Origin: a virus
Taxonomy: Duplodnaviria; Heunggongvirae; Uroviricota; Caudoviricetes
Length of the DNA stretch: 6,906 bases
Reading direction: 5' to 3' (one strand)
Virus record (IMG/VR): IMGVR_UViG_2690316278_000011
Positions 176 to 6,725 of this stretch are shown here, one piece after another. Below the pieces are notes generated by a model, which saw nothing but the letters and a program-made list of their open reading frames with translations, was not told the origin of the DNA and searched no databases. The position numbers were made by a program, and so were the translations under genes. Position 1 is the first letter of the stretch; each line of letters starts with the position of its first letter.

Positions 176-3123
176 GGCCATGACTCCTCAATCTTTATCG
201 TAAAAACTGCCACGNNNNNNNNNNNNNNNNNNNNNNNNNNNNNNNNNNNNNNNNNNNNNNNNNNNNNNNNNNNNNNNNNNNNNNNNNNNNNNNNNNNNNN
301 NNNNNNNNNNNNNNNNNNNNNNNNNNNNNNNNNNNNNNNNNNNNNNNNNNNNNNNNNNNNNNNNNNNNNNNNNNNNNNNNNNNNNNNNNNNNNNNNNNNN
401 NNNNNNNNNNNNNNNNNNNNNNNNNNNNNNNNNNNNNNNNNNNNNNNNNNNNNNNNNNNNNCAGGGACCAGCGCCGGAGGCAGCGGAGCCGGGACCACGG
501 GNNNNNNNNNNNNNNNNNNNNNNNNNNNNNNNNNNNNNNNNNNNNNNNNNNNNNNNNNNNNNNNNNNNNNNNNNNNNNNNNNNNNNNNNNNNNNNNNNNN
601 NNNNNNNNNNNNNNNNNNNNNNNNNNNNNNNNNNNNNNNNNNNNNNNNNNNNNNNNNNNNNNNNNNNNNNNNNNNNNNNNNNNNNNNNNNNNNNNNNNNN
701 NNNNNNNNNNNNNNNNNNNNNNNNNNNNNNNNNNNNNNNNNNNNNNNNNNNNNNNNNNNNNNNNNNNNNNNNNNNNNNNNNNNNNNACAGGCTTCGGCGG
801 ATTGATTTTCGCCAGGTCCCCCTGAAGCAAGGCAACCTTGTCCTGAAGAATGGCCGCACGCTGTGCGTCTNNNNNNNNNNNNNNNNNNNNNNNNNNNNNN
901 NNNNNNNNNNNNNNNNNNNNNNNNNNNNNNNNNNNNNNNNNNNNNNNNNNNNNNNNNNNNNNNNNNNNNNNNNNNNNNNNNNNNNNNNNNNNNNNNNNNN
1001 NNNNNNNNNNNNNNNNNNNNNNNNNNNNNNNNNNNNNNNNNNNNNNNNNNNNNNNNNNNNNNNNNNNNNNNNNNNNNNNNNNNNNNNNNNNNNNNNNNNN
1101 NNAACCAGTTAAAGACCTGAATAATCCCATCGCGCACGACATCAAAAACAGGGCCAAACCGTTCAAAGGTTTCGCGCAACGGGGTCAGCCTTTCCATAAT
1201 CCCGCTGAACACCCCGGCAAAAAATGCCCTGATGGGATCCCAGTATTTCCAGATAAGAACGGCAGCTCCGGCAAGCGCAGCCACGATAAGACTAACCGGA
1301 CTGAACAGCGCCCCGATAGCGCCACCAAGTAAAGAAACGGAACCCGTCACCATTCCCCATAATGCAGGCAGAACCCTGACAACATTCATTGATTCGGTCA
1401 GGAGAGAAAAACCGAGACGCAACGTAGCCAGCTTCCCGTGAAGCACCCCAATAACCAGAGACAACGAACCAACCGTTGCTGTTGTCGCCAGCAGTGCGCC
1501 TCCCGCTATCAGTAACTGGCGCGTCAGTGCCGGGTGGGCCTGCGCCAGCGCCGTCACCTTTGAGACAACCCGCGTGAGCCACTGCGTGACAGAACGCAGC
1601 GGACCGTCAACCAGATCACTGATGCGAATACGCAGACCTTCCCATGCACTGCCGAGTGATTTCAGGTTGCCATCAAGGTTATTGGCCATAACCTTTGCCG
1701 TGCGTTCTGCCTCACCGCGCGCGCCTTCAAGTTCTTTTCTCAGTTTGGCTAAGAAGCCGTCACCTGCCGCATCAACGAGGCCCATAAATGATGTGAAAGC
1801 CTCTTCTCCGGCAATGTCCTTAAAGAACGATACCCGGTCAACCTCCCCGTATTTGCGGGTGGCTTTATAGAGATCGGCCAGCACATTCTCCATCGGGCGC
1901 ATTTTGCCTTTGGCGTCAGCAACTGACACCCCCAGCTCTTTCAGTGCTTCTGCCGCTGCCTTTGGCGGTGATGACAGATTGGCCAGGCTTTTACGCAACG
2001 CTGTACCTGCATCACTCCCCCTGATACCCATCTTCGCCAGCACGCCCGCCATCGCTGCGGCCTGCTCCAGCGATATTCCCAGCTTACCCGCCACCGGACC
2101 TGCATATTTCATGGTTTCGCCCAGTGCGCGAAGGTCAGTGTTGGTACGGGTAAACGCTGCGGTAAGTGTGTCACCGACCCGGTCCATCTGGTCAGCAGAG
2201 AGGCCGAACTGCGTCAGGATATTGGAACCAATATCCGCCGTCTCGCCGAGGTCCATACCGCCAGCCGTTGCCATGCTCAGCACGCCGGGAAGCGCAGCCT
2301 GAATGGCCTGCGGTGTGAAACCAGCCATTGCAAGAAATGCCTGTCCACTGGCGGCATCGCCTGCGGTGAACTGCGTTTCAGAGCCAAGTTTTAACGCCTG
2401 CTCACGCAGCGCCTTAAACTGCGGGCTGTTTTTATCGATTCGCGTCAGTGCCTGAACACGGGACATCTCTTTCCCGAACCCGATAGCGGGCTGCAAAAAA
2501 CGCCCGGCAGCATAGCCGCCCGCTGCCGCCGCACCTGTTGCCAGCGCACCACCTGTTTTCAGTTTTCCCGCTGTTTCCTGCGCGCGTGAATACCGCTCAC
2601 GCGCCTGCGTTACACGCGCAAGCGCCCGCCGTTCGCGTTCAAGCTGGTTGTTGTATTGTCCGGTGCGTCTGATGGCCTGCTGGATGGTGTTATCGCTGCC
2701 TGTCAGGGAAATGCCGTGGCGTTTCAGCTCTCCGCCAAGTTCCCGCATTTTCTGAATTTCCCGTGTGCGCGATTCATTCAGGCGTTCAAGCCGGGTGCTT
2801 AACTGCTGCATCAGCTTTTGTTGTTTTTCGCTGAGCACTGTACCCGTGCGTTGTAACTGATTAAGGGCGTTAAGCTGGCGTCGTGCTTTCACGATGCCCG
2901 CATCCGCTTTACTGACAGCGTCACGGGCGCGCTCAAATGAACGCGCCTGACGCTCGAGATTTTTGATCGCCCCCTGCGTTCGCTGGATGGAGTCACCAAA
3001 CTGCCCCATCAGGCGGCGGGCGTTTTCGGCAGGCCGGGTCAGCCTGTCAACGGCGCTGAAAGCGACCCGGATATCAAGAGTCTTCATTGTCTGCATTCCC
3101 GCTGCGAAGTGCCGCCCGCTCAC
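172..3123 (-). CDS. Phage tail tape measure protein (P2 gpT-like)
   Basis: Long minus-strand ORF, nominally 983 aa. The first 673 residues (3123..1105) are unmasked: coiled-coil-like N-terminal region, TMP core-like segment (...FTAGDAASGQAFLAMAGFTPQAIQAALPGVLSMATAGGMDLGETADIGSNILTQFGL...), then a long hydrophobic stretch (about 1240-1533). Sits directly after E/E' as in P2. Start is ambiguous (GTG 3123, ATG 3096 or ATG 3087). The C-terminal third crosses three N-runs and its frame cannot be verified. Confidence 0.85.
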   Translation of the reverse strand: MSGRHFAAGMQTMKTLDIRVAFSAVDRLTRPAENARRLMGQFGDSIQRTQGAIKNLERQARSFERARDAVSKADAGIVKARRQLNALNQLQRTGTVLSEKQQKLMQQLSTRLERLNESRTREIQKMRELGGELKRHGISLTGSDNTIQQAIRRTGQYNNQLERERRALARVTQARERYSRAQETAGKLKTGGALATGAAAAGGYAAGRFLQPAIGFGKEMSRVQALTRIDKNSPQFKALREQALKLGSETQFTAGDAASGQAFLAMAGFTPQAIQAALPGVLSMATAGGMDLGETADIGSNILTQFGLSADQMDRVGDTLTAAFTRTNTDLRALGETMKYAGPVAGKLGISLEQAAAMAGVLAKMGIRGSDAGTALRKSLANLSSPPKAAAEALKELGVSVADAKGKMRPMENVLADLYKATRKYGEVDRVSFFKDIAGEEAFTSFMGLVDAAGDGFLAKLRKELEGARGEAERTAKVMANNLDGNLKSLGSAWEGLRIRISDLVDGPLRSVTQWLTRVVSKVTALAQAHPALTRQLLIAGGALLATTATVGSLSLVIGVLHGKLATLRLGFSLLTESMNVVRVLPALWGMVTGSVSLLGGAIGALFSPVSLIVAALAGAAVLIWKYWDPIRAFFAGVFSGIMERLTPLRETFERFGPVFDVVRDGIIQVFNWXXXXXXXXXXXXXXXXXXXXXXXXXXXXXXXXXXXXXXXXXXXXXXXXXXXXXXXXXXXXXXXXXXXXXXXXXXXXXXRRTACGHSSGQGCLASGGPGENQSAEACXXXXXXXXXXXXXXXXXXXXXXXXXXXXXXXXXXXXXXXXXXXXXXXXXXXXXXXXXXXXXXXXXXXXXXXXXXXXXXXXXXXXXXXXXXXXXXXPVVPAPLPPALVPXXXXXXXXXXXXXXXXXXXXXXXXXXXXXXXXXXXXXXXXXXXXXXXXXXXXXXXXXXXXXXXXXXXXXXXXXXXXXXXXXXXVAVFTIKIEESWP
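215..461. other. Run of N (masked or unresolved), 247 nt
   Basis: Contiguous n characters inside the tape measure gene. Confidence 1.
502..786. other. Run of N (masked or unresolved), 285 nt
   Basis: Contiguous n characters inside the tape measure gene. Confidence 1.
871..1102. other. Run of N (masked or unresolved), 232 nt
   Basis: Contiguous n characters inside the tape measure gene. Confidence 1.
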
Positions 3124-3603
3124 GCCAGCTAACCACTTCGCCGGGCGTCATCATGAAGATTTCGGCGGGCGACCAGTTAAAAATGGCGGCAATATCCGCC
3201 ACAAAGTCTTCTATGTGCTCAAAGCACACAACCGTGATCAGGCTTCCGTCGCCTGTTCGTTCTTCTCGCCAGAGTCCGCACCGCTCAAAAAATTTACGGC
3301 AACCACACATAACTGAATAAAGTCACGGGATGCCATTTTTTTGATCGTCACTTCATCCAGTCGCGGTGATGTCACGCGTGACAGCAGCGTAAACATGGAT
3401 TCCGCTTTCAAATTCAGCACATCAGACAGCGACAAATCTCGCAGAGATCCAGCCTGCTCAATAGCCCCGGTGATCTCCACATACGTGATTTTTTCGCCGC
3501 CTCGCTCAATTGGTTGGGTAAGTTTTACGCCACGCTCACTGGTTTCTTTCACAGTGTCAGCAACGACCGTGTTTTCGGTATCGATGTTTTTCGTCTCTTT
3601 CAT
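3074..3603 (-). CDS. gpE+E' fusion chaperone made by programmed -1 frameshift (about 176 aa)
   Basis: The -1 frame is open from 3322 to its stop at 3076-3074 and overlaps the gpE frame across T TTT TTG (minus strand, 3292..3286). After the slip the reading continues ERCGLWREERTGDGS...NADNEDS. The E' frame has a stop at 3325-3323 upstream, so E' cannot be an independent long gene. The 3' end overlaps the T start. Confidence 0.7.
3238..3603 (-). CDS. Tail assembly chaperone, gpE-like (zero-frame product)
   Basis: 121-aa ORF between the tube and tape measure genes. ATG at 3603 preceded by AAGGAG with about 7 nt spacing. Contains the slippery heptamer near its 3' end. Confidence 0.8.
   Translation of the reverse strand: MKETKNIDTENTVVADTVKETSERGVKLTQPIERGGEKITYVEITGAIEQAGSLRDLSLSDVLNLKAESMFTLLSRVTSPRLDEVTIKKMASRDFIQLCVVAVNFLSGADSGEKNEQATEA
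3286..3292 (-). other. -1 programmed ribosomal frameshift slippery heptamer T TTT TTG
   Basis: Zero-frame codons AAT TTT TTG (N-F-L of gpE) fit the X XXY YYZ pattern; the -1 frame reads TTT TTT GAG into the E' extension. Both frames are open across the site. Confidence 0.7.
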
Positions 3604-3625
3604 CAGGAAACTCCTTTCAGTCAGA

Positions 3626-3644
3626 GGCGACGCACTGCGCCGCC
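3626..3644 (-). promoter_or_regulatory. GC-rich intercistronic stem-loop between the tube and gpE genes
   Basis: Plus-strand GGCGACGC-ACT-GCGCCGCC: 8-bp stem with one A/C mismatch and a 3-nt loop, inside the 54-nt gap between the FII stop (3658) and the E start (3603). No U-tract follows on the transcribed strand. Confidence 0.35.
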
Positions 3645-3657
3645 TGCATATTACTTA

Positions 3658-4170
3658 TCAGCCAAGCCCGAGCGCGGAACGGATGCGATCGGGCACAATG
3701 TCCCTGCCGTCCTTCCGGTAAATGAAGTTCAGCAGGTCAATCTCCCACAACGGGCGATCGTTAACACTCAGCTTGTAGTAGGTGTTTTTAATGGCGTAAG
3801 TGTGTGATGTGGCTTCGCCCTGTTTGGCTTCCCCCATATCAATTTCCGTCACACGTCCGCGCATTTCGACTTCATACAGGTCGCTTTCAGCGTCGGTGTA
3901 GTATTCACCCGCAAAACGCAGCAGCGTACCGTCAATCGTGCCGCCATACTTAAGGAACAGCTCACGAACTGCGCCCCCCATGACAAAGCTCGCATCAAGC
4001 GCGGAGTCATCCAGGCCGAGATCAATACTTACCGCTCCCATCATGCCACCACCCCGGTAGCTGTCGGTTTTGCGCGTCAGCTTAGGCAGAGTGACGGACG
4101 TCACCTTACCCACTTCGTTTTCACCATCCACAAACAGCGTAAAAAAGCGAAGATGTTTTGGTACAGCCAT
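3658..4170 (-). CDS. Tail tube protein (P2 gpFII-like)
   Basis: 170-aa ORF (MAVPKHLRFFTLFVDGENEVGKVTSVTLPKLTRKTDSYRGGGMMGA...) closely resembling P2 FII as I recall it (...VTLPKLTRK...YRG.GM...). ATG at 4170 preceded by GGGAGG; the start overlaps the sheath stop (TGATG). Confidence 0.9.
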   Translation of the reverse strand: MAVPKHLRFFTLFVDGENEVGKVTSVTLPKLTRKTDSYRGGGMMGAVSIDLGLDDSALDASFVMGGAVRELFLKYGGTIDGTLLRFAGEYYTDAESDLYEVEMRGRVTEIDMGEAKQGEATSHTYAIKNTYYKLSVNDRPLWEIDLLNFIYRKDGRDIVPDRIRSALGLG

Positions 4171-5253
4171 CAGGCACCTCCCAGCACCGCAAATGCGGGA
4201 CCAAAGAATTCATCAGTAAACGACTGGTAAAGCTCCATGTCTTCCAGCGGGGGAACAGGCGTATATTTGTAGCGAATACGCACGCGCCCCTGACGTAAAT
4301 TCGTGGTGCCGTTATCCACCACGTCATACCAGCACGACGCCCCAATCAGTTTCCCGGCAGTAACCAGTGAATCCAGTTTTGCCCTGATGGCACCGATAAC
4401 ATCCTTCACGTTCGCAGGCGTCAGTGGACTGTCGATGGTTTCAAACTGCGCTTCCGCAATTGAATCAGCCAGCACCTGTGCGGTTCGGGTATACACCTCA
4501 AAGATGTAGGCGTTCGTTTCCGGTGTGCGGTTGCCCCAGAAGCGGAACCCGTTGCGACGAATAATGGTCGTGATTTCTTTGTTGTTGAGGCTGTTGGCAT
4601 CACTGTCTTCGGCCTGCAACGACCAGAACACATGCCTGGACATCCCCAGCACATTTTTAACCGGAACGTTGGACAGCGATTTGTGCCAGCCCTGCTCATG
4701 GTCAATGTACGCACGAAGGCCGCACGCATAGGCAGGCGCGGGGAACGTTTCGTTTTTGCCACTTTTCGGGTTGTAGGCGATGAAGTCCGGCCATAAGAGC
4801 ATCACCTCACGTTCGTTGAATTTCTGGCGGTAGGTAATTGCCTCAGCCATCGTGTTACAGTCATGACATGAGGCATACACAAACGCGCGCAGTTTACCCG
4901 CAATCACGCACAGGGATTTTGTCACCGCCTCCGTGTCCAGCTCCGGCGCGGCCAGAATACGCGGACGGTATCCGATGCTTTCATCCTGCTCTGCAACAAG
5001 CAGCGCATACATCCCCGTATAGCTGCCGTCAGATTCAGAACCACCGATAACCAGTTGATCCTGCGTTTTTCCGTCTTCTTCNNNNNNNNNNNNNNNNNNN
5101 NNNNNNNNNNNNNNNNNNNNNNNNNNNNNNCCACGCGAACGACGATCACCTTTGTGCTCACCTGGTCTGCGATGGCCTTAAGCGCACGATAAAGCGTCCC
5201 CGTTGTTCCGCATTTTCCCAGCACGTCATTGACGCGGGGCAGCAGTGTGGGCT
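4170..5253 (-). CDS. Tail sheath protein (P2 gpFI-like), 5'-partial as visible
   Basis: The 280-aa ORF 4170..5012 matches the sheath C-terminal two-thirds (...GFRFWGNRT...YTRTAQV...YKYTPVPPLED...). The same frame stays open upstream of Met-5012 (EEDGKTQDQLVIGGSESDGSYTG-MYALL) up to the 49-N run. Segment 5131..5253 encodes PTLLPRVNDVLGKCGTTGTLYRALKAIADQVSTKVIVVRV, sheath N-terminal-like, but in a different nominal frame. The start codon lies inside the masked 5254-5541 block. Confidence 0.85.
5082..5130. other. Run of N (masked or unresolved), 49 nt
   Basis: Contiguous n characters inside the sheath gene; the sheath-like frames on either side differ by one position. Confidence 1.
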
Positions 5254-5541
5254 NNNNNNNNNNNNNNNNNNNNNNNNNNNNNNNNNNNNNNNNNNNNNNN
5301 NNNNNNNNNNNNNNNNNNNNNNNNNNNNNNNNNNNNNNNNNNNNNNNNNNNNNNNNNNNNNNNNNNNNNNNNNNNNNNNNNNNNNNNNNNNNNNNNNNNN
5401 NNNNNNNNNNNNNNNNNNNNNNNNNNNNNNNNNNNNNNNNNNNNNNNNNNNNNNNNNNNNNNNNNNNNNNNNNNNNNNNNNNNNNNNNNNNNNNNNNNNN
5501 NNNNNNNNNNNNNNNNNNNNNNNNNNNNNNNNNNNNNNNNN
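5254..5541. other. Run of N (masked or unresolved), 288 nt
   Basis: Contiguous n characters covering the sheath start and the region upstream of it. Confidence 1.
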
Positions 5542-5627: not shown

Positions 5628-5654
5628 NNNNNNNNNNNNNNNNNNNNNNNNNNN
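5628..5654. other. Run of N (masked or unresolved), 27 nt
   Basis: Contiguous n characters immediately upstream of the gpD-like ORF. Confidence 1.
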
Positions 5655-5660
5655 GACCCC

Positions 5661-6725
5661 GTGAAAATGCCGGATTTTGATATTCTCGCGGAGGGTAAAA
5701 CGCTGTCAGGCGTGGCAGAGCGCCTGATGAGCCTGTCACTGACCGACAACCGGGGATTTGAGGCGGACCAGCTCACCATCACGCTGGATGATGCGGATGG
5801 TCAGTTGCAGCTACCGCCACGGGGCGCGCGCCTGACGGTTCTCATTGGCTGGAAGGGAGAACCGCTGACAGAAAAAGGCACTTACATTGTTGATGAAATC
5901 GCTCACGAAGGACCGCCGGACAGGCTGACTGTTTCAGCCAGAAGCGCAGATTTTCGGGCTGAATTTAACGTTAAACGTGAGGTGTCCTGGCATGATGTGA
6001 CCGTTGAGCGTGTGGTATCCGCCATCGCTCATCGGTATGGTCTGAAACCGCAAATCAGCGAAATGCTGATGGATATCGAAATCGACCACGCCGACCAGAC
6101 CGAAGAAAGCGACATGTCCTTCCTTACGCGCATGGCGGAAATGCTGGGCGCAATCACCACGGTAAAAAGCGGTAATCTGTTATTCATCATGCCCGGTGGT
6201 GGCGTGAACGCACAGGGCCAGCCGTTGCCCTCGTTCGCCATCACACGCAGCAGCGGCGATCGCCATCAGTTCCGCATTGCTGACCGCGAAGCGTATACGG
6301 GGGTACGCGCTTACTGGCTTGATCTTAATTACGGGAAAAAGAAAAAAGTCAGCGTGAAACGCCGCAAACCGTCAAAACCAAAAAAGGAGAAAAGCAGCAG
6401 CCGGGAAGGCGACTATATGGAAGGTGCGGAAGGCAACGTGTTTGTGTTACGCAAAACTTATCAGAACGAGCAGGCAGCAAGACGTGCAGCGGCGGCAAAG
6501 TGGCAGCAGCTACAACGCGGAGCCGCATCATTCTCCATCACACTGGCGCATGGACGTGCAGAACTCTACCCCGAAATGCATGGCACGGTAACAGGATTTA
6601 AAAGCGAGATTGATAATCAGGACTGGATTATTGCAAAAGCCGAGCACACCATTGATAACAGCGGCTTTACCACGCAGCTTGAGCTTGAGGCAAAAATCCC
6701 GGAATGGATAGCAGAAACAGAGTGA
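5661..6725 (+). CDS. Tail/baseplate hub protein, P2 gpD-like (late control D family)
   Basis: 354-aa ORF with family hallmarks as I recall them: PDF near the N-terminus, SLTDNRGFEADQL, GW.GEPL, ARSADF, DQTEESD..FLTRMA, IADREAYTGVRAYW. The ORF-finder start is GTG 5661 (ATG at 5667), but the frame is open back into the N-run, so the true start is uncertain. Stop TGA at 6723-6725. Confidence 0.85.
   Translation: MKMPDFDILAEGKTLSGVAERLMSLSLTDNRGFEADQLTITLDDADGQLQLPPRGARLTVLIGWKGEPLTEKGTYIVDEIAHEGPPDRLTVSARSADFRAEFNVKREVSWHDVTVERVVSAIAHRYGLKPQISEMLMDIEIDHADQTEESDMSFLTRMAEMLGAITTVKSGNLLFIMPGGGVNAQGQPLPSFAITRSSGDRHQFRIADREAYTGVRAYWLDLNYGKKKKVSVKRRKPSKPKKEKSSSREGDYMEGAEGNVFVLRKTYQNEQAARRAAAAKWQQLQRGAASFSITLAHGRAELYPEMHGTVTGFKSEIDNQDWIIAKAEHTIDNSGFTTQLELEAKIPEWIAETE

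What the first reader, a model, noticed from the sequence alone, without database searches (positions are those of the whole stretch)
3286..3292. Canonical -1 frameshift heptamer T TTT TTG producing gpE+E'
The heptamer is exactly positioned in the zero frame of gpE (AAT TTT TTG), and the -1 frame is open only from 3322 down to 3074. The geometry matches the conserved chaperone frameshift of P2 E/E' and lambda G/GT, for which a T-run of this type has been reported in P2 to my recollection. This is direct sequence support that the module is a functional phage-type tail assembly cassette rather than random ORFs.
Basis: partly seen in the sequence, partly recalled or inferred. Interest (0 to 1): 0.5.

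Follow-up and report, generated by a model that had tools for sequence, protein, structure and literature searches.

The report
P2-type tail chaperone frameshift site
This is the well-known programmed -1 ribosomal frameshift that lets P2-like phages make two tail-assembly chaperones (E and E+E') from one gene, found here in a common P88-like E. coli prophage: real, but ordinary.

Summary
On the minus strand, 3292..3286 reads T TTT TTG in the zero frame of a 121-aa gpE gene (3603..3238). The -1 frame is open only from 3322 to 3074. The window is about 98% identical to phage P88 (Xuanwuvirus, Peduoviridae).

The -1 ORF carries the Pfam Phage_P2_GpE domain. The predicted 176-aa fusion aligns end to end with P2 E+E' (E = 3e-25). 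The Phe codon of the heptamer is an invariant column across 14 Peduoviridae. P2, Wphi, 186 and others have the same in-frame T TTT TTG at that column. Between the two Xuanwuvirus alleles, synonymous change switches from the zero frame to the -1 frame exactly at the site.

One refinement. A sister allele, including the active phage PhiSM, reads AAT TTT ATG and lacks T7G. It keeps the overlapping heptamer A AAT TTT, which is present in 80 of 80 unbiased loci against 64 of 80 for T7G. That heptamer belongs to the efficient class in E. coli. The slippery element is therefore best described as the decamer A AAT TTT TTG (3295..3286), and the junction may read NFL|ER or NF|FER.

No downstream stimulatory structure was found. 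Databases annotate E' as a separate CDS. This is a new member of a known kind, of low interest.

The parts
3238..3603 (-). gpE coding sequence (121 aa), the zero-frame tail assembly chaperone. A strong Shine-Dalgarno AAGGAG lies at 3616..3611, 7 nt before the ATG at 3603.
   Evidence: PHROG 103 'tail protein', E = 1.8e-35. PF10109 Phage_TAC_7 at 17.2 bits, below the cut-off of 25. Homologous to P2 gpE through the fusion alignment.
3286..3292 (-). P2-type slippery heptamer T_TTT_TTG (P site Phe TTT, A site Leu TTG).
   Evidence: The same heptamer in the same register sits at the homologous column in P2, Wphi, 186 and seven other Peduoviridae phages. P2 site documented in PMC3091744.
3289..3295 (-). 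Overlapping slippery heptamer A_AAT_TTT (P site Asn AAT, A site Phe TTT). With the previous part it forms the decamer A AAT TTT TTG (3295..3286).
   Evidence: Present in 80 of 80 loci picked by tube-protein similarity, against 64 of 80 for T7G. It is the only canonical heptamer left in phages 520873 and PhiSM. The class H_HH.U_UU.Y is among the most efficient in E. coli (PMC4066793).
3074..3286 (-). E' segment read in the -1 frame after the slip (70 codons plus TGA at 3076..3074). The G at 3286 is read twice. It gives E+E' of 176 aa.
   Evidence: PF06528 Phage_P2_GpE, E = 1.9e-12. PHROG 1756, E = 2e-38.
3074..3322 (-). The whole open stretch of the -1 frame. It is bounded upstream by the stop at 3325..3323, so only slips between 3322 and 3238 can be productive.
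   Evidence: The decamer holds the only in-frame X_XXY_YYZ heptamers inside this interval.
3238..3285 (-). E/E' overlap, where purifying selection follows the -1 frame and not the gpE frame.
   Evidence: Allele A against allele B consensus, synonymous/nonsynonymous codon changes. Zero frame: 19/8 upstream against 2/7 in the overlap. -1 frame: 2/25 upstream against 6/4 in the overlap. Fisher p = 0.019 and 0.002. Variable sites peak at zero-frame codon position 3 upstream and at position 2, the -1 frame wobble, downstream.
280..3087 (-). Tape-measure gene T. Its ATG at 3087 overlaps the end of E' by 14 nt. The 3' end is hidden by an N run and is placed by homology with P88.
   Evidence: (PF10145).
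3658..4170 (-). Tail tube gene FII, immediately upstream of gpE.
   Evidence: PF04985, E = 1.9e-46.

Best explanation
A minority of ribosomes translating gpE slip back one nucleotide on the tract A AAT TTT TTG (minus strand 3295..3286) and continue in the -1 frame to the TGA at 3076..3074.

One mRNA and one start codon therefore give two proteins. gpE (121 aa) comes from normal termination at 3240..3238. E+E' (176 aa) is the gpE body fused to a P2_GpE domain.

By analogy with P2 E/E+E' and lambda G/GT, both are tail assembly chaperones. They coat the tape-measure protein T encoded just downstream and recruit tube subunits. The fixed low frameshift rate sets their ratio.

Shown here: the sequence, the frames, homology to the P2 pair, positional conservation of a slippery heptamer, and the switch of selective constraint to the -1 frame at the tract.

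Inferred: that the slip is ribosomal; its efficiency; which heptamer is used (T_TTT_TTG as in P2, A_AAT_TTT as in the sister allele, or both in succession); and the chaperone function.
For: 1. Register and open frame.
2. Gene order tube - E - E' - T.
3. E' is PF06528 at 46.9 bits. All 14 reconstructed fusions from different genera hit PF06528, and 13 of 14 hit PF10109.
4. BLASTP of the fusion against P2 E+E' is contiguous across the junction, E = 3e-25. Phe105 of the site is one of 17 invariant columns.
5. A canonical in-frame heptamer sits at that column in every relative, with E' always in the -1 frame. The heptamers are T_TTT_TTG (P2, Wphi, 186, YenM, SEN5, KSP20, Kp4872-3, RSA1, Alfacinha1, Milagro), T_TTT_TTT (pZM41, ST79), T_TTT_TTA (relatives of the Reipivirus phage Kp4846-1), C_CCT_TTC (59 Reipivirus loci) and A_AAT_TTT (Xuanwuvirus allele B). 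Only phage 1127AP1 differs: its G_GGA_AAG lies closer to the gpE stop, in a region that does not align.
6. Synonymous/nonsynonymous pattern flips from the zero frame to the -1 frame at the tract.
7. No premature -1 stop in 77 of 77 unique sequences.
8. Candidate independent starts for E' (ATG 3310, GTG 3229) have no good Shine-Dalgarno sequence, whereas gpE has AAGGAG.
9. Control: other in-frame heptamers in the window lack these properties. A_AAA_AAG in gpD is not conserved in relatives. T_TTT_TTG in T is followed by a -1 stop after 20 codons.
10. Literature: P2 site and products (PMC3091744); G-T type frameshifting is conserved in long-tailed phages and is 2- to 3-fold more efficient in P2-like phages than in lambda (PMC5009743).
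Against: - There is no protein-level evidence for this phage. The P88 and PhiSM papers do not mention a frameshift.
- T_TTT_TTG is not in the class of most efficient E. coli heptamers. UUG is a 'heterogeneous' A-site codon, and the U_UUG tetramer is only 1.8- to 3.6-fold above background (PMC4066793).
- T7G is absent from 16 of 80 unbiased Xuanwuvirus loci, including the active phage PhiSM. It is therefore not essential in this genus.
- No stimulatory RNA structure lies downstream: z = +0.65 for 60 nt and -1.41 for 100 nt. There is no Rfam hit. I see no upstream SD-like stimulator in the sequence.
- gpE is below the Pfam cut-off for Phage_TAC_7.
- RefSeq and the P88 record annotate E' as an independent 51-aa CDS.
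Confidence: 0.85

Rival explanations
1. The slip happens only on the P2-type heptamer T_TTT_TTG, exactly as the first reader wrote (junction NFL|ER). A_AAT_TTT is irrelevant in this allele.
For: Same heptamer, register and column as the experimentally characterised P2 site. It is the commonest form across Peduoviridae genera.
Against: Allele B phages, including the active PhiSM, lack it and keep A_AAT_TTT. Four unique P88-type backbones also read TTT ATG. By the E. coli rules A_AA.U_UU.U is in the efficient class and U_UU.U_UU.G is not listed there. Ribosomes meet A_AAT_TTT first.
Confidence: 0.3
2. E' is translated on its own from an internal start, either GTG 3229 as annotated in P88 and RefSeq or ATG 3310 in the -1 frame. 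No frameshift is needed.
For: Database records annotate a stand-alone 51-aa 'GpE family phage tail protein'. The Pfam domain (residues 29-64 of the E' segment) lies wholly downstream of GTG 3229.
Against: The -1 frame is under purifying selection upstream of GTG 3229, throughout the overlap. No usable Shine-Dalgarno sequence precedes either start. Annotated E' starts differ from phage to phage: 30 to 51 aa, at non-homologous codons. The homologous P2 protein is made as a fusion.
Confidence: 0.06
3. The fusion arises by transcriptional slippage. RNA polymerase adds one U in the U6 run, and ribosomes then read the edited mRNA normally.
For: The tract is a homopolymer run. Runs of A or U are known slippage sites (mentioned in PMC4066793). 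A +1 nt insertion would give the same frame change.
Against: The run is only 6 U. In allele B it is 4 U (AAAUUUUAUG), and those phages are viable. Relatives use C_CCT_TTC or G_GGA_AAG, which are not homopolymers. All sites keep the codon register X_XXY_YYZ, which matters for ribosomes but not for RNA polymerase.
Confidence: 0.04
4. The heptamer is a chance occurrence, and E' is an unexpressed remnant.
For: TTTTTTG occurs 5 times in the window. Any in-frame heptamer appears in about 10% of shuffles.
Against: The heptamer is conserved in position across genera, the domain hit is significant, and selection acts on the -1 frame.
Confidence: 0.02

Closest known systems
Phage P2 gpE / gpE+E' (FETUD operon; Christie et al. 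2002, cited through PMC3091744)
   Same: Homologous proteins: 31% identity over 150 aa across the junction. Same Pfam E' domain. Same position between FII and T. Same -1 direction. Identical heptamer T_TTT_TTG in the same register at the same alignment column. E' overlaps the start of T. No downstream hairpin.
   Different: gpE is longer (121 aa against 91) and the overlap is longer (85 nt against 37). There is an extra overlapping heptamer, A_AAT_TTT, because the preceding codon is AAT instead of GGT. The E' linker has about 10 extra residues. In this genus gene D is transcribed divergently and is not part of the same operon.
Xuanwuvirus allele B (phages 520873 and PhiSM / Shae_phiSM)
   Same: Same genus, about 86% nucleotide identity. 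Same gene order. The E' sequence is nearly identical.
   Different: It reads GTA AAT TTT ATG, so T7G is absent and only A_AAT_TTT remains. The predicted junction is NF|YER.
Phage lambda G / GT tail assembly chaperones (Levin 1993; Xu, Hendrix and Duda 2004, 2013, 2014, as reviewed in PMC5009743)
   Same: [quoted passage not shown]
   Different: No lambda G/T family was detected by the Pfam scan. The lambda heptamer is G_GGA_AAG. Lambda is a siphovirus, whereas this is a contractile-tail phage.
Reipivirus (Kp4846-1) and Baylorvirus (Mannheimia phage 1127AP1) E/E' sites
   Same: Homologous E and E'. Slip in the -1 direction.
   Different: Different heptamers. C_CCT_TTC in Reipivirus keeps the Phe codon in the A site at the same column. 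G_GGA_AAG in 1127AP1 lies closer to the E stop. This shows turnover of the slippery sequence.

Membership tests
P2-type gpE / gpE+E' frameshifted tail assembly chaperone pair | Two ORFs located between the tail tube gene (FII) and the tape-measure gene (T) | tested here: met
   FII PF04985 at 4170..3658, E at 3603..3238, E' down to 3074, T PF10145 from 3087.
P2-type gpE / gpE+E' frameshifted tail assembly chaperone pair | The second ORF is in the -1 frame and overlaps the 3' end of the first | tested here: met
   The -1 frame is open 3322..3074, giving an 85-nt overlap with gpE.
P2-type gpE / gpE+E' frameshifted tail assembly chaperone pair | In-frame X_XXY_YYZ slippery heptamer inside the overlap, at the column homologous to the P2 site | tested here: met
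   T_TTT_TTG at 3292..3286 and A_AAT_TTT at 3295..3289. Phe105 is an invariant column shared with P2.
P2-type gpE / gpE+E' frameshifted tail assembly chaperone pair | The extension carries the Phage_P2_GpE domain (PF06528) | tested here: met
   46.9 bits against a cut-off of 23, E = 1.9e-12.
P2-type gpE / gpE+E' frameshifted tail assembly chaperone pair | The first ORF belongs to Phage_TAC_7 (PF10109) | tested here: inconclusive
   17.2 bits, E = 0.005, below the cut-off of 25. However, 13 of 14 aligned relatives match at E <= 0.01, and BLASTP to P2 E+E' covers the E part.
P2-type gpE / gpE+E' frameshifted tail assembly chaperone pair | The -1 frame is under purifying selection within the overlap (it is translated there) | tested here: met
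   Synonymous/nonsynonymous counts flip at the tract; Fisher p = 0.002 to 0.019. Codon-phase pattern of variable sites agrees.
P2-type gpE / gpE+E' frameshifted tail assembly chaperone pair | Two proteins with a common N-terminus are actually produced, and both are needed for tail assembly | not testable with these tools
   Needs mass spectrometry, western blotting or genetics. No report was found for P88 or PhiSM.
Canonical stimulated -1 PRF cassette (heptamer + spacer + downstream hairpin or pseudoknot, or upstream SD), as in IS911, IS3 and dnaX | Stable structure 5-9 nt downstream of the heptamer, or an SD-like element upstream | tested here: not met
   Folding z-scores are +0.65 (60 nt) and -1.41 (100 nt). 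No Rfam family matched. No purine-rich SD lies in the 20 nt upstream. P2 is the same in this respect.
Lambda G/GT family | Sequence homology to lambda gpG/gpT and the G_GGA_AAG heptamer | tested here: not met
   The Pfam scan returns only PF10109 and PF06528, and the heptamer differs. This is a functional analogue, not a member.

The most novel reading that the evidence does not exclude
In Xuanwuvirus the operative slip site is not, or not only, the P2 heptamer. It would be A_AAU_UUU, with the Phe codon in the A site.

Under this reading the P88-type allele carries a tandem, overlapping double site (A_AAU_UUU then U_UUU_UUG). This gives ribosomes two consecutive chances to slip. The common T/A polymorphism at 3288 (TTG or ATG) would then be a natural tuning knob for the E : E+E' ratio.

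More generally, the E/E' site would be a place where the slippery heptamer turns over around a fixed Phe codon. Variants seen at that codon are T7G, T7, T6A, C_CCT_TTC and A_AAT_TTT. G_GGA_AAG in phage 1127AP1 is a further variant at a different position.
Probability: 0.35. Interest if true: 0.3.

Novelty: new member of a known kind. Interest (0 to 1): 0.15.

Why it matters
The practical value is mainly for annotation. About a quarter of complete E. coli genomes (1374 of 5426) carry this prophage module. RefSeq and the phage records call E' a separate 51-aa 'GpE family phage tail protein' starting at a GTG. The evidence here says the real product is a 176-aa frameshift fusion.

Biologically it confirms that the tail-assembly cassette is intact and P2-like. 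The only mildly new point is that this genus shows a natural polymorphism between a double slippery site and a single one. That could be used to study how heptamer identity sets chaperone stoichiometry.

Tried and rejected
- Rfam scan of the whole window for a known frameshift element or other RNA: no match.
- NCBIfam scan of E, E' and the fusion: no family.
- PDB sequence search with the family profile: nothing significant.
- Downstream stimulatory structure: not better than shuffled sequence. A 9-bp hairpin about 55 nt downstream is too far away, and its sequence is fixed by coding, so it was not pursued.
- Genome-contig scan with gpE: only 2 loci.
- Viral-contig scan with the tube protein: 80 near-identical loci. 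These were useful for allele counts but not for diversity.
- The pattern scan fixed GTAAATTTT, so it is biased for the A_AAT_TTT question. I used the tube-selected loci instead.
- Christie et al. 2002 (PMC135442) is not held in the library, so the P2 experiment is cited second-hand through PMC3091744 and PMC5009743.
- Other in-frame heptamers in the window were considered as additional recoding sites and rejected. gpD A_AAA_AAG (6380-6386) is not conserved in relatives. T T_TTT_TTG (2494-2500) is followed by an early -1 stop.
- The A8 run at 3335-3342 is out of register, and the -1 frame is closed there.
- L222, where E and E' are in one frame, is explained by a 5-nt deletion in a metagenomic contig. 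It is not a natural fusion.

Full report
**What the window is.** The region around the finding is 98% identical to Escherichia phage P88 (Xuanwuvirus, Peduoviridae) and to several sequenced relatives. The same 701 bases occur in 1374 of 5426 complete E. coli genomes. On the minus strand the order is:
- sheath (PF04984, PF17482);
- tube FII, 4170..3658 (PF04985);
- a 121-aa ORF, 3603..3238;
- a -1 frame ORF running to 3074;
- the tape-measure gene from ATG 3087 (PF10145).

A gpD-like hub gene lies on the plus strand. Six N runs mask parts of T, the sheath gene and gpD.

**Checking the observation.** The plus strand at 3286-3292 is CAAAAAA. The minus strand therefore reads TTTTTTG, inside GTA AAT TTT TTG AGC in the gpE frame. 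This is the X_XXY_YYZ register.
- A slip on T_TTT_TTG gives ...AVNFL|ERCGLW... and a 176-aa fusion.
- The motif by itself is not rare: 5 copies in the window against 1.55 expected.
- An in-frame T_TTT_TTG in the last 28 codons of codon-shuffled gpE appears in 0.4% of trials, and any canonical heptamer in about 10%.

**Homology.** The E' segment matches Pfam Phage_P2_GpE (46.9 bits, cut-off 23) and PHROG 1756. gpE matches PHROG 103 strongly. It matches Pfam Phage_TAC_7 only at 17.2 bits, below the cut-off of 25.

The conceptual fusion aligns with P2 E+E' continuously across the junction (31% identity over 150 aa, E = 3e-25). I reconstructed fusions from 14 Peduoviridae of different genera. All 14 hit PF06528, and 13 of 14 hit PF10109. 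The Phe of the slippery site is one of 17 invariant columns. My reconstruction from P2 DNA gives E = 91 aa and E+E' = 142 aa. [quoted passage not shown] Wphi, 186 and Milagro carry explicit frameshift annotations at the same place.

**Conservation of the site.** E' is in the -1 frame in every relative examined, and every one has a canonical in-frame heptamer in the overlap:

| Heptamer | Where found |
|---|---|
| T_TTT_TTG | P2, Wphi, 186, YenM_201.16, SEN5, KSP20, Kp4872-3, RSA1, Alfacinha1, Milagro |
| T_TTT_TTT | pZM41, ST79 |
| T_TTT_TTA | relatives of the Reipivirus phage Kp4846-1 |
| C_CCT_TTC | 59 Reipivirus loci |
| G_GGA_AAG | Mannheimia phage 1127AP1 (lies closer to the gpE stop) |

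The position is therefore fixed, apart from 1127AP1, and the heptamer can turn over. This is the known pattern for tail chaperone frameshifts (PMC5009743).

**The refinement.** The sister Xuanwuvirus allele is about 86% identical. It is found in phage 520873 and in PhiSM, which PMC6456863 describes as an active temperate phage. It reads GTA AAT TTT ATG. T7G is gone. What remains is A_AAT_TTT, one codon upstream, and this heptamer is also present in the window at 3295..3289.

I took 80 IMG/VR loci selected only by tube-protein similarity, so the sample is unbiased for the site. All 80 have A_AAT_TTT. Of these, 64 also have T7G and 16 read TTT ATG, one of them on a P88-type backbone.

The systematic E. 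coli study of Sharma et al. lists H_HH.U_UU.Y among the most efficient heptamers. That class includes A_AA.U_UU.U and C_CC.U_UU.C. The same study notes that heterogeneous A-site codons such as UUG shift less well, and that the U_UUG tetramer is only 1.8- to 3.6-fold above background (PMC4066793). The slippery element here is therefore best described as the decamer A AAT TTT TTG. A slip on the first heptamer gives NF|FER, and a slip on the second gives NFL|ER. The products have the same length and differ by one residue.

**Evidence that the -1 frame is translated from the tract onward.** I compared the consensus of 42 unique allele A sequences with that of 31 unique allele B sequences. Counts are synonymous/nonsynonymous codon changes:

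| Region | Zero frame | -1 frame |
|---|---|---|
| Upstream of the tract | 19/8 | 2/25 |
| 48-nt overlap | 2/7 | 6/4 |
| Beyond the gpE stop | 0/7 | 4/3 |

The Fisher tests give p = 0.0003 to 0.019. Variable columns peak at zero-frame codon position 3 upstream, and at position 2 (the -1 frame wobble position) downstream. None of the 77 unique sequences has a stop in the -1 frame after the site. This argues against independent initiation of E' at GTG 3229, which is how the P88 record and RefSeq annotate it. Neither that GTG nor the -1 frame ATG at 3310 has a usable Shine-Dalgarno sequence, whereas gpE has AAGGAG 7 nt before its ATG.

**Stimulators.** No significant structure follows the tract: z = +0.65 for 60 nt and -1.41 for 100 nt. 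No Rfam family matches. No SD-like element lies upstream. This matches what is reported for P2 and its Burkholderia relatives and suggests a modest, unstimulated frameshift rate.

**Mechanism and rivals.**
- Most likely (0.85): a programmed -1 ribosomal frameshift within the decamer. It makes gpE and E+E' in a fixed ratio as chaperones of the tape-measure protein. The end of E' overlaps the start of T by 14 nt.
- Transcriptional slippage is unlikely. Allele B has only four U, other genera use non-homopolymeric heptamers, and the codon register is conserved in all of them.
- A chance motif is excluded by the homology and selection data.

**Novelty.** This is a textbook recoding event at the site homologous to P2, in a phage group where it has not been annotated or discussed. 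I file it as a new member of a known kind, with low interest. The only slightly new angle is the natural polymorphism between the double and single heptamer.

Noticed in passing
window 3119-3152: A spacer in the type I-E CRISPR array of E. coli strain GmM066 (NZ_CM183652.1, next to cas2e) matches this stretch of the E'/T-start region at 100% over 34 nt. Some E. coli therefore carry immunity against this prophage family.
   Followed up: partly
window 215-461, 502-786, 871-1102, 5082-5130, 5254-5541, 5628-5654: Six runs of N mask parts of the tape-measure gene (including its stop and the start of gene U), the sheath N-terminus and the gpD start. ORF lists across these stretches are artefactual.
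   Followed up: no
window 6380-6386 (+ strand, gpD): An in-frame A_AAA_AAG, the most slippery E. coli heptamer, is followed by GGAG, and the -1 frame stays open for 71 codons. Most relatives read CCC AAA AAG instead, so it is not conserved and is probably chance.
   Followed up: yes
window 2494-2500 (- strand, gene T): A second in-frame T_TTT_TTG lies inside the tape-measure gene. The -1 frame closes after 20 codons, so any slip would only truncate the protein.
   Followed up: partly
window 3335-3342 (- strand, gpE): An A8 run (ATC AAA AAA ATG) is out of slippery register, and the -1 frame is closed there. In locus L003 the variant ATA AAA AAA is in register and the upstream -1 stop is lost.
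   Followed up: partly
L003 (NZ_JBQPOM010000071.1, 'Vagococcus sp. WN89Y'): A 226-kb contig labelled as the Gram-positive genus Vagococcus carries a gpE 94% identical to this enterobacterial prophage. This is most likely contamination or mislabelling of the assembly.
   Followed up: no
window 3603-3658 boundary; loci L140-L219: Loci whose tube protein is about 99% identical to the window carry either the A or the B allele of E/E' (about 86% nucleotide identity). This indicates a recombination junction between FII and E, i.e. module mosaicism.
   Followed up: partly
window 5661-6725 (+) against 5354-172 (-); L001: Gene D is transcribed divergently from the sheath-tube-E-T-U block. In P88 a DNA invertase follows U and a hok/gef-family (MokW-like) gene follows D. 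This differs from the P2 F-E-T-U-D operon.
   Followed up: no
L222 (IMGVR_UViG_3300031110_000632) 401-868: A Reipivirus-like metagenomic contig has a 5-nt deletion upstream of the slip site that puts E and E' in one frame. This is probably a defective copy or an assembly error.
   Followed up: yes
window 3074-3229; L001 4075-4230; L220 375-530: Both the P88 RefSeq record and PGAP E. coli annotations call E' a stand-alone 51-aa CDS starting at GTG. This systematic mis-annotation affects more than a thousand genomes.
   Followed up: yes
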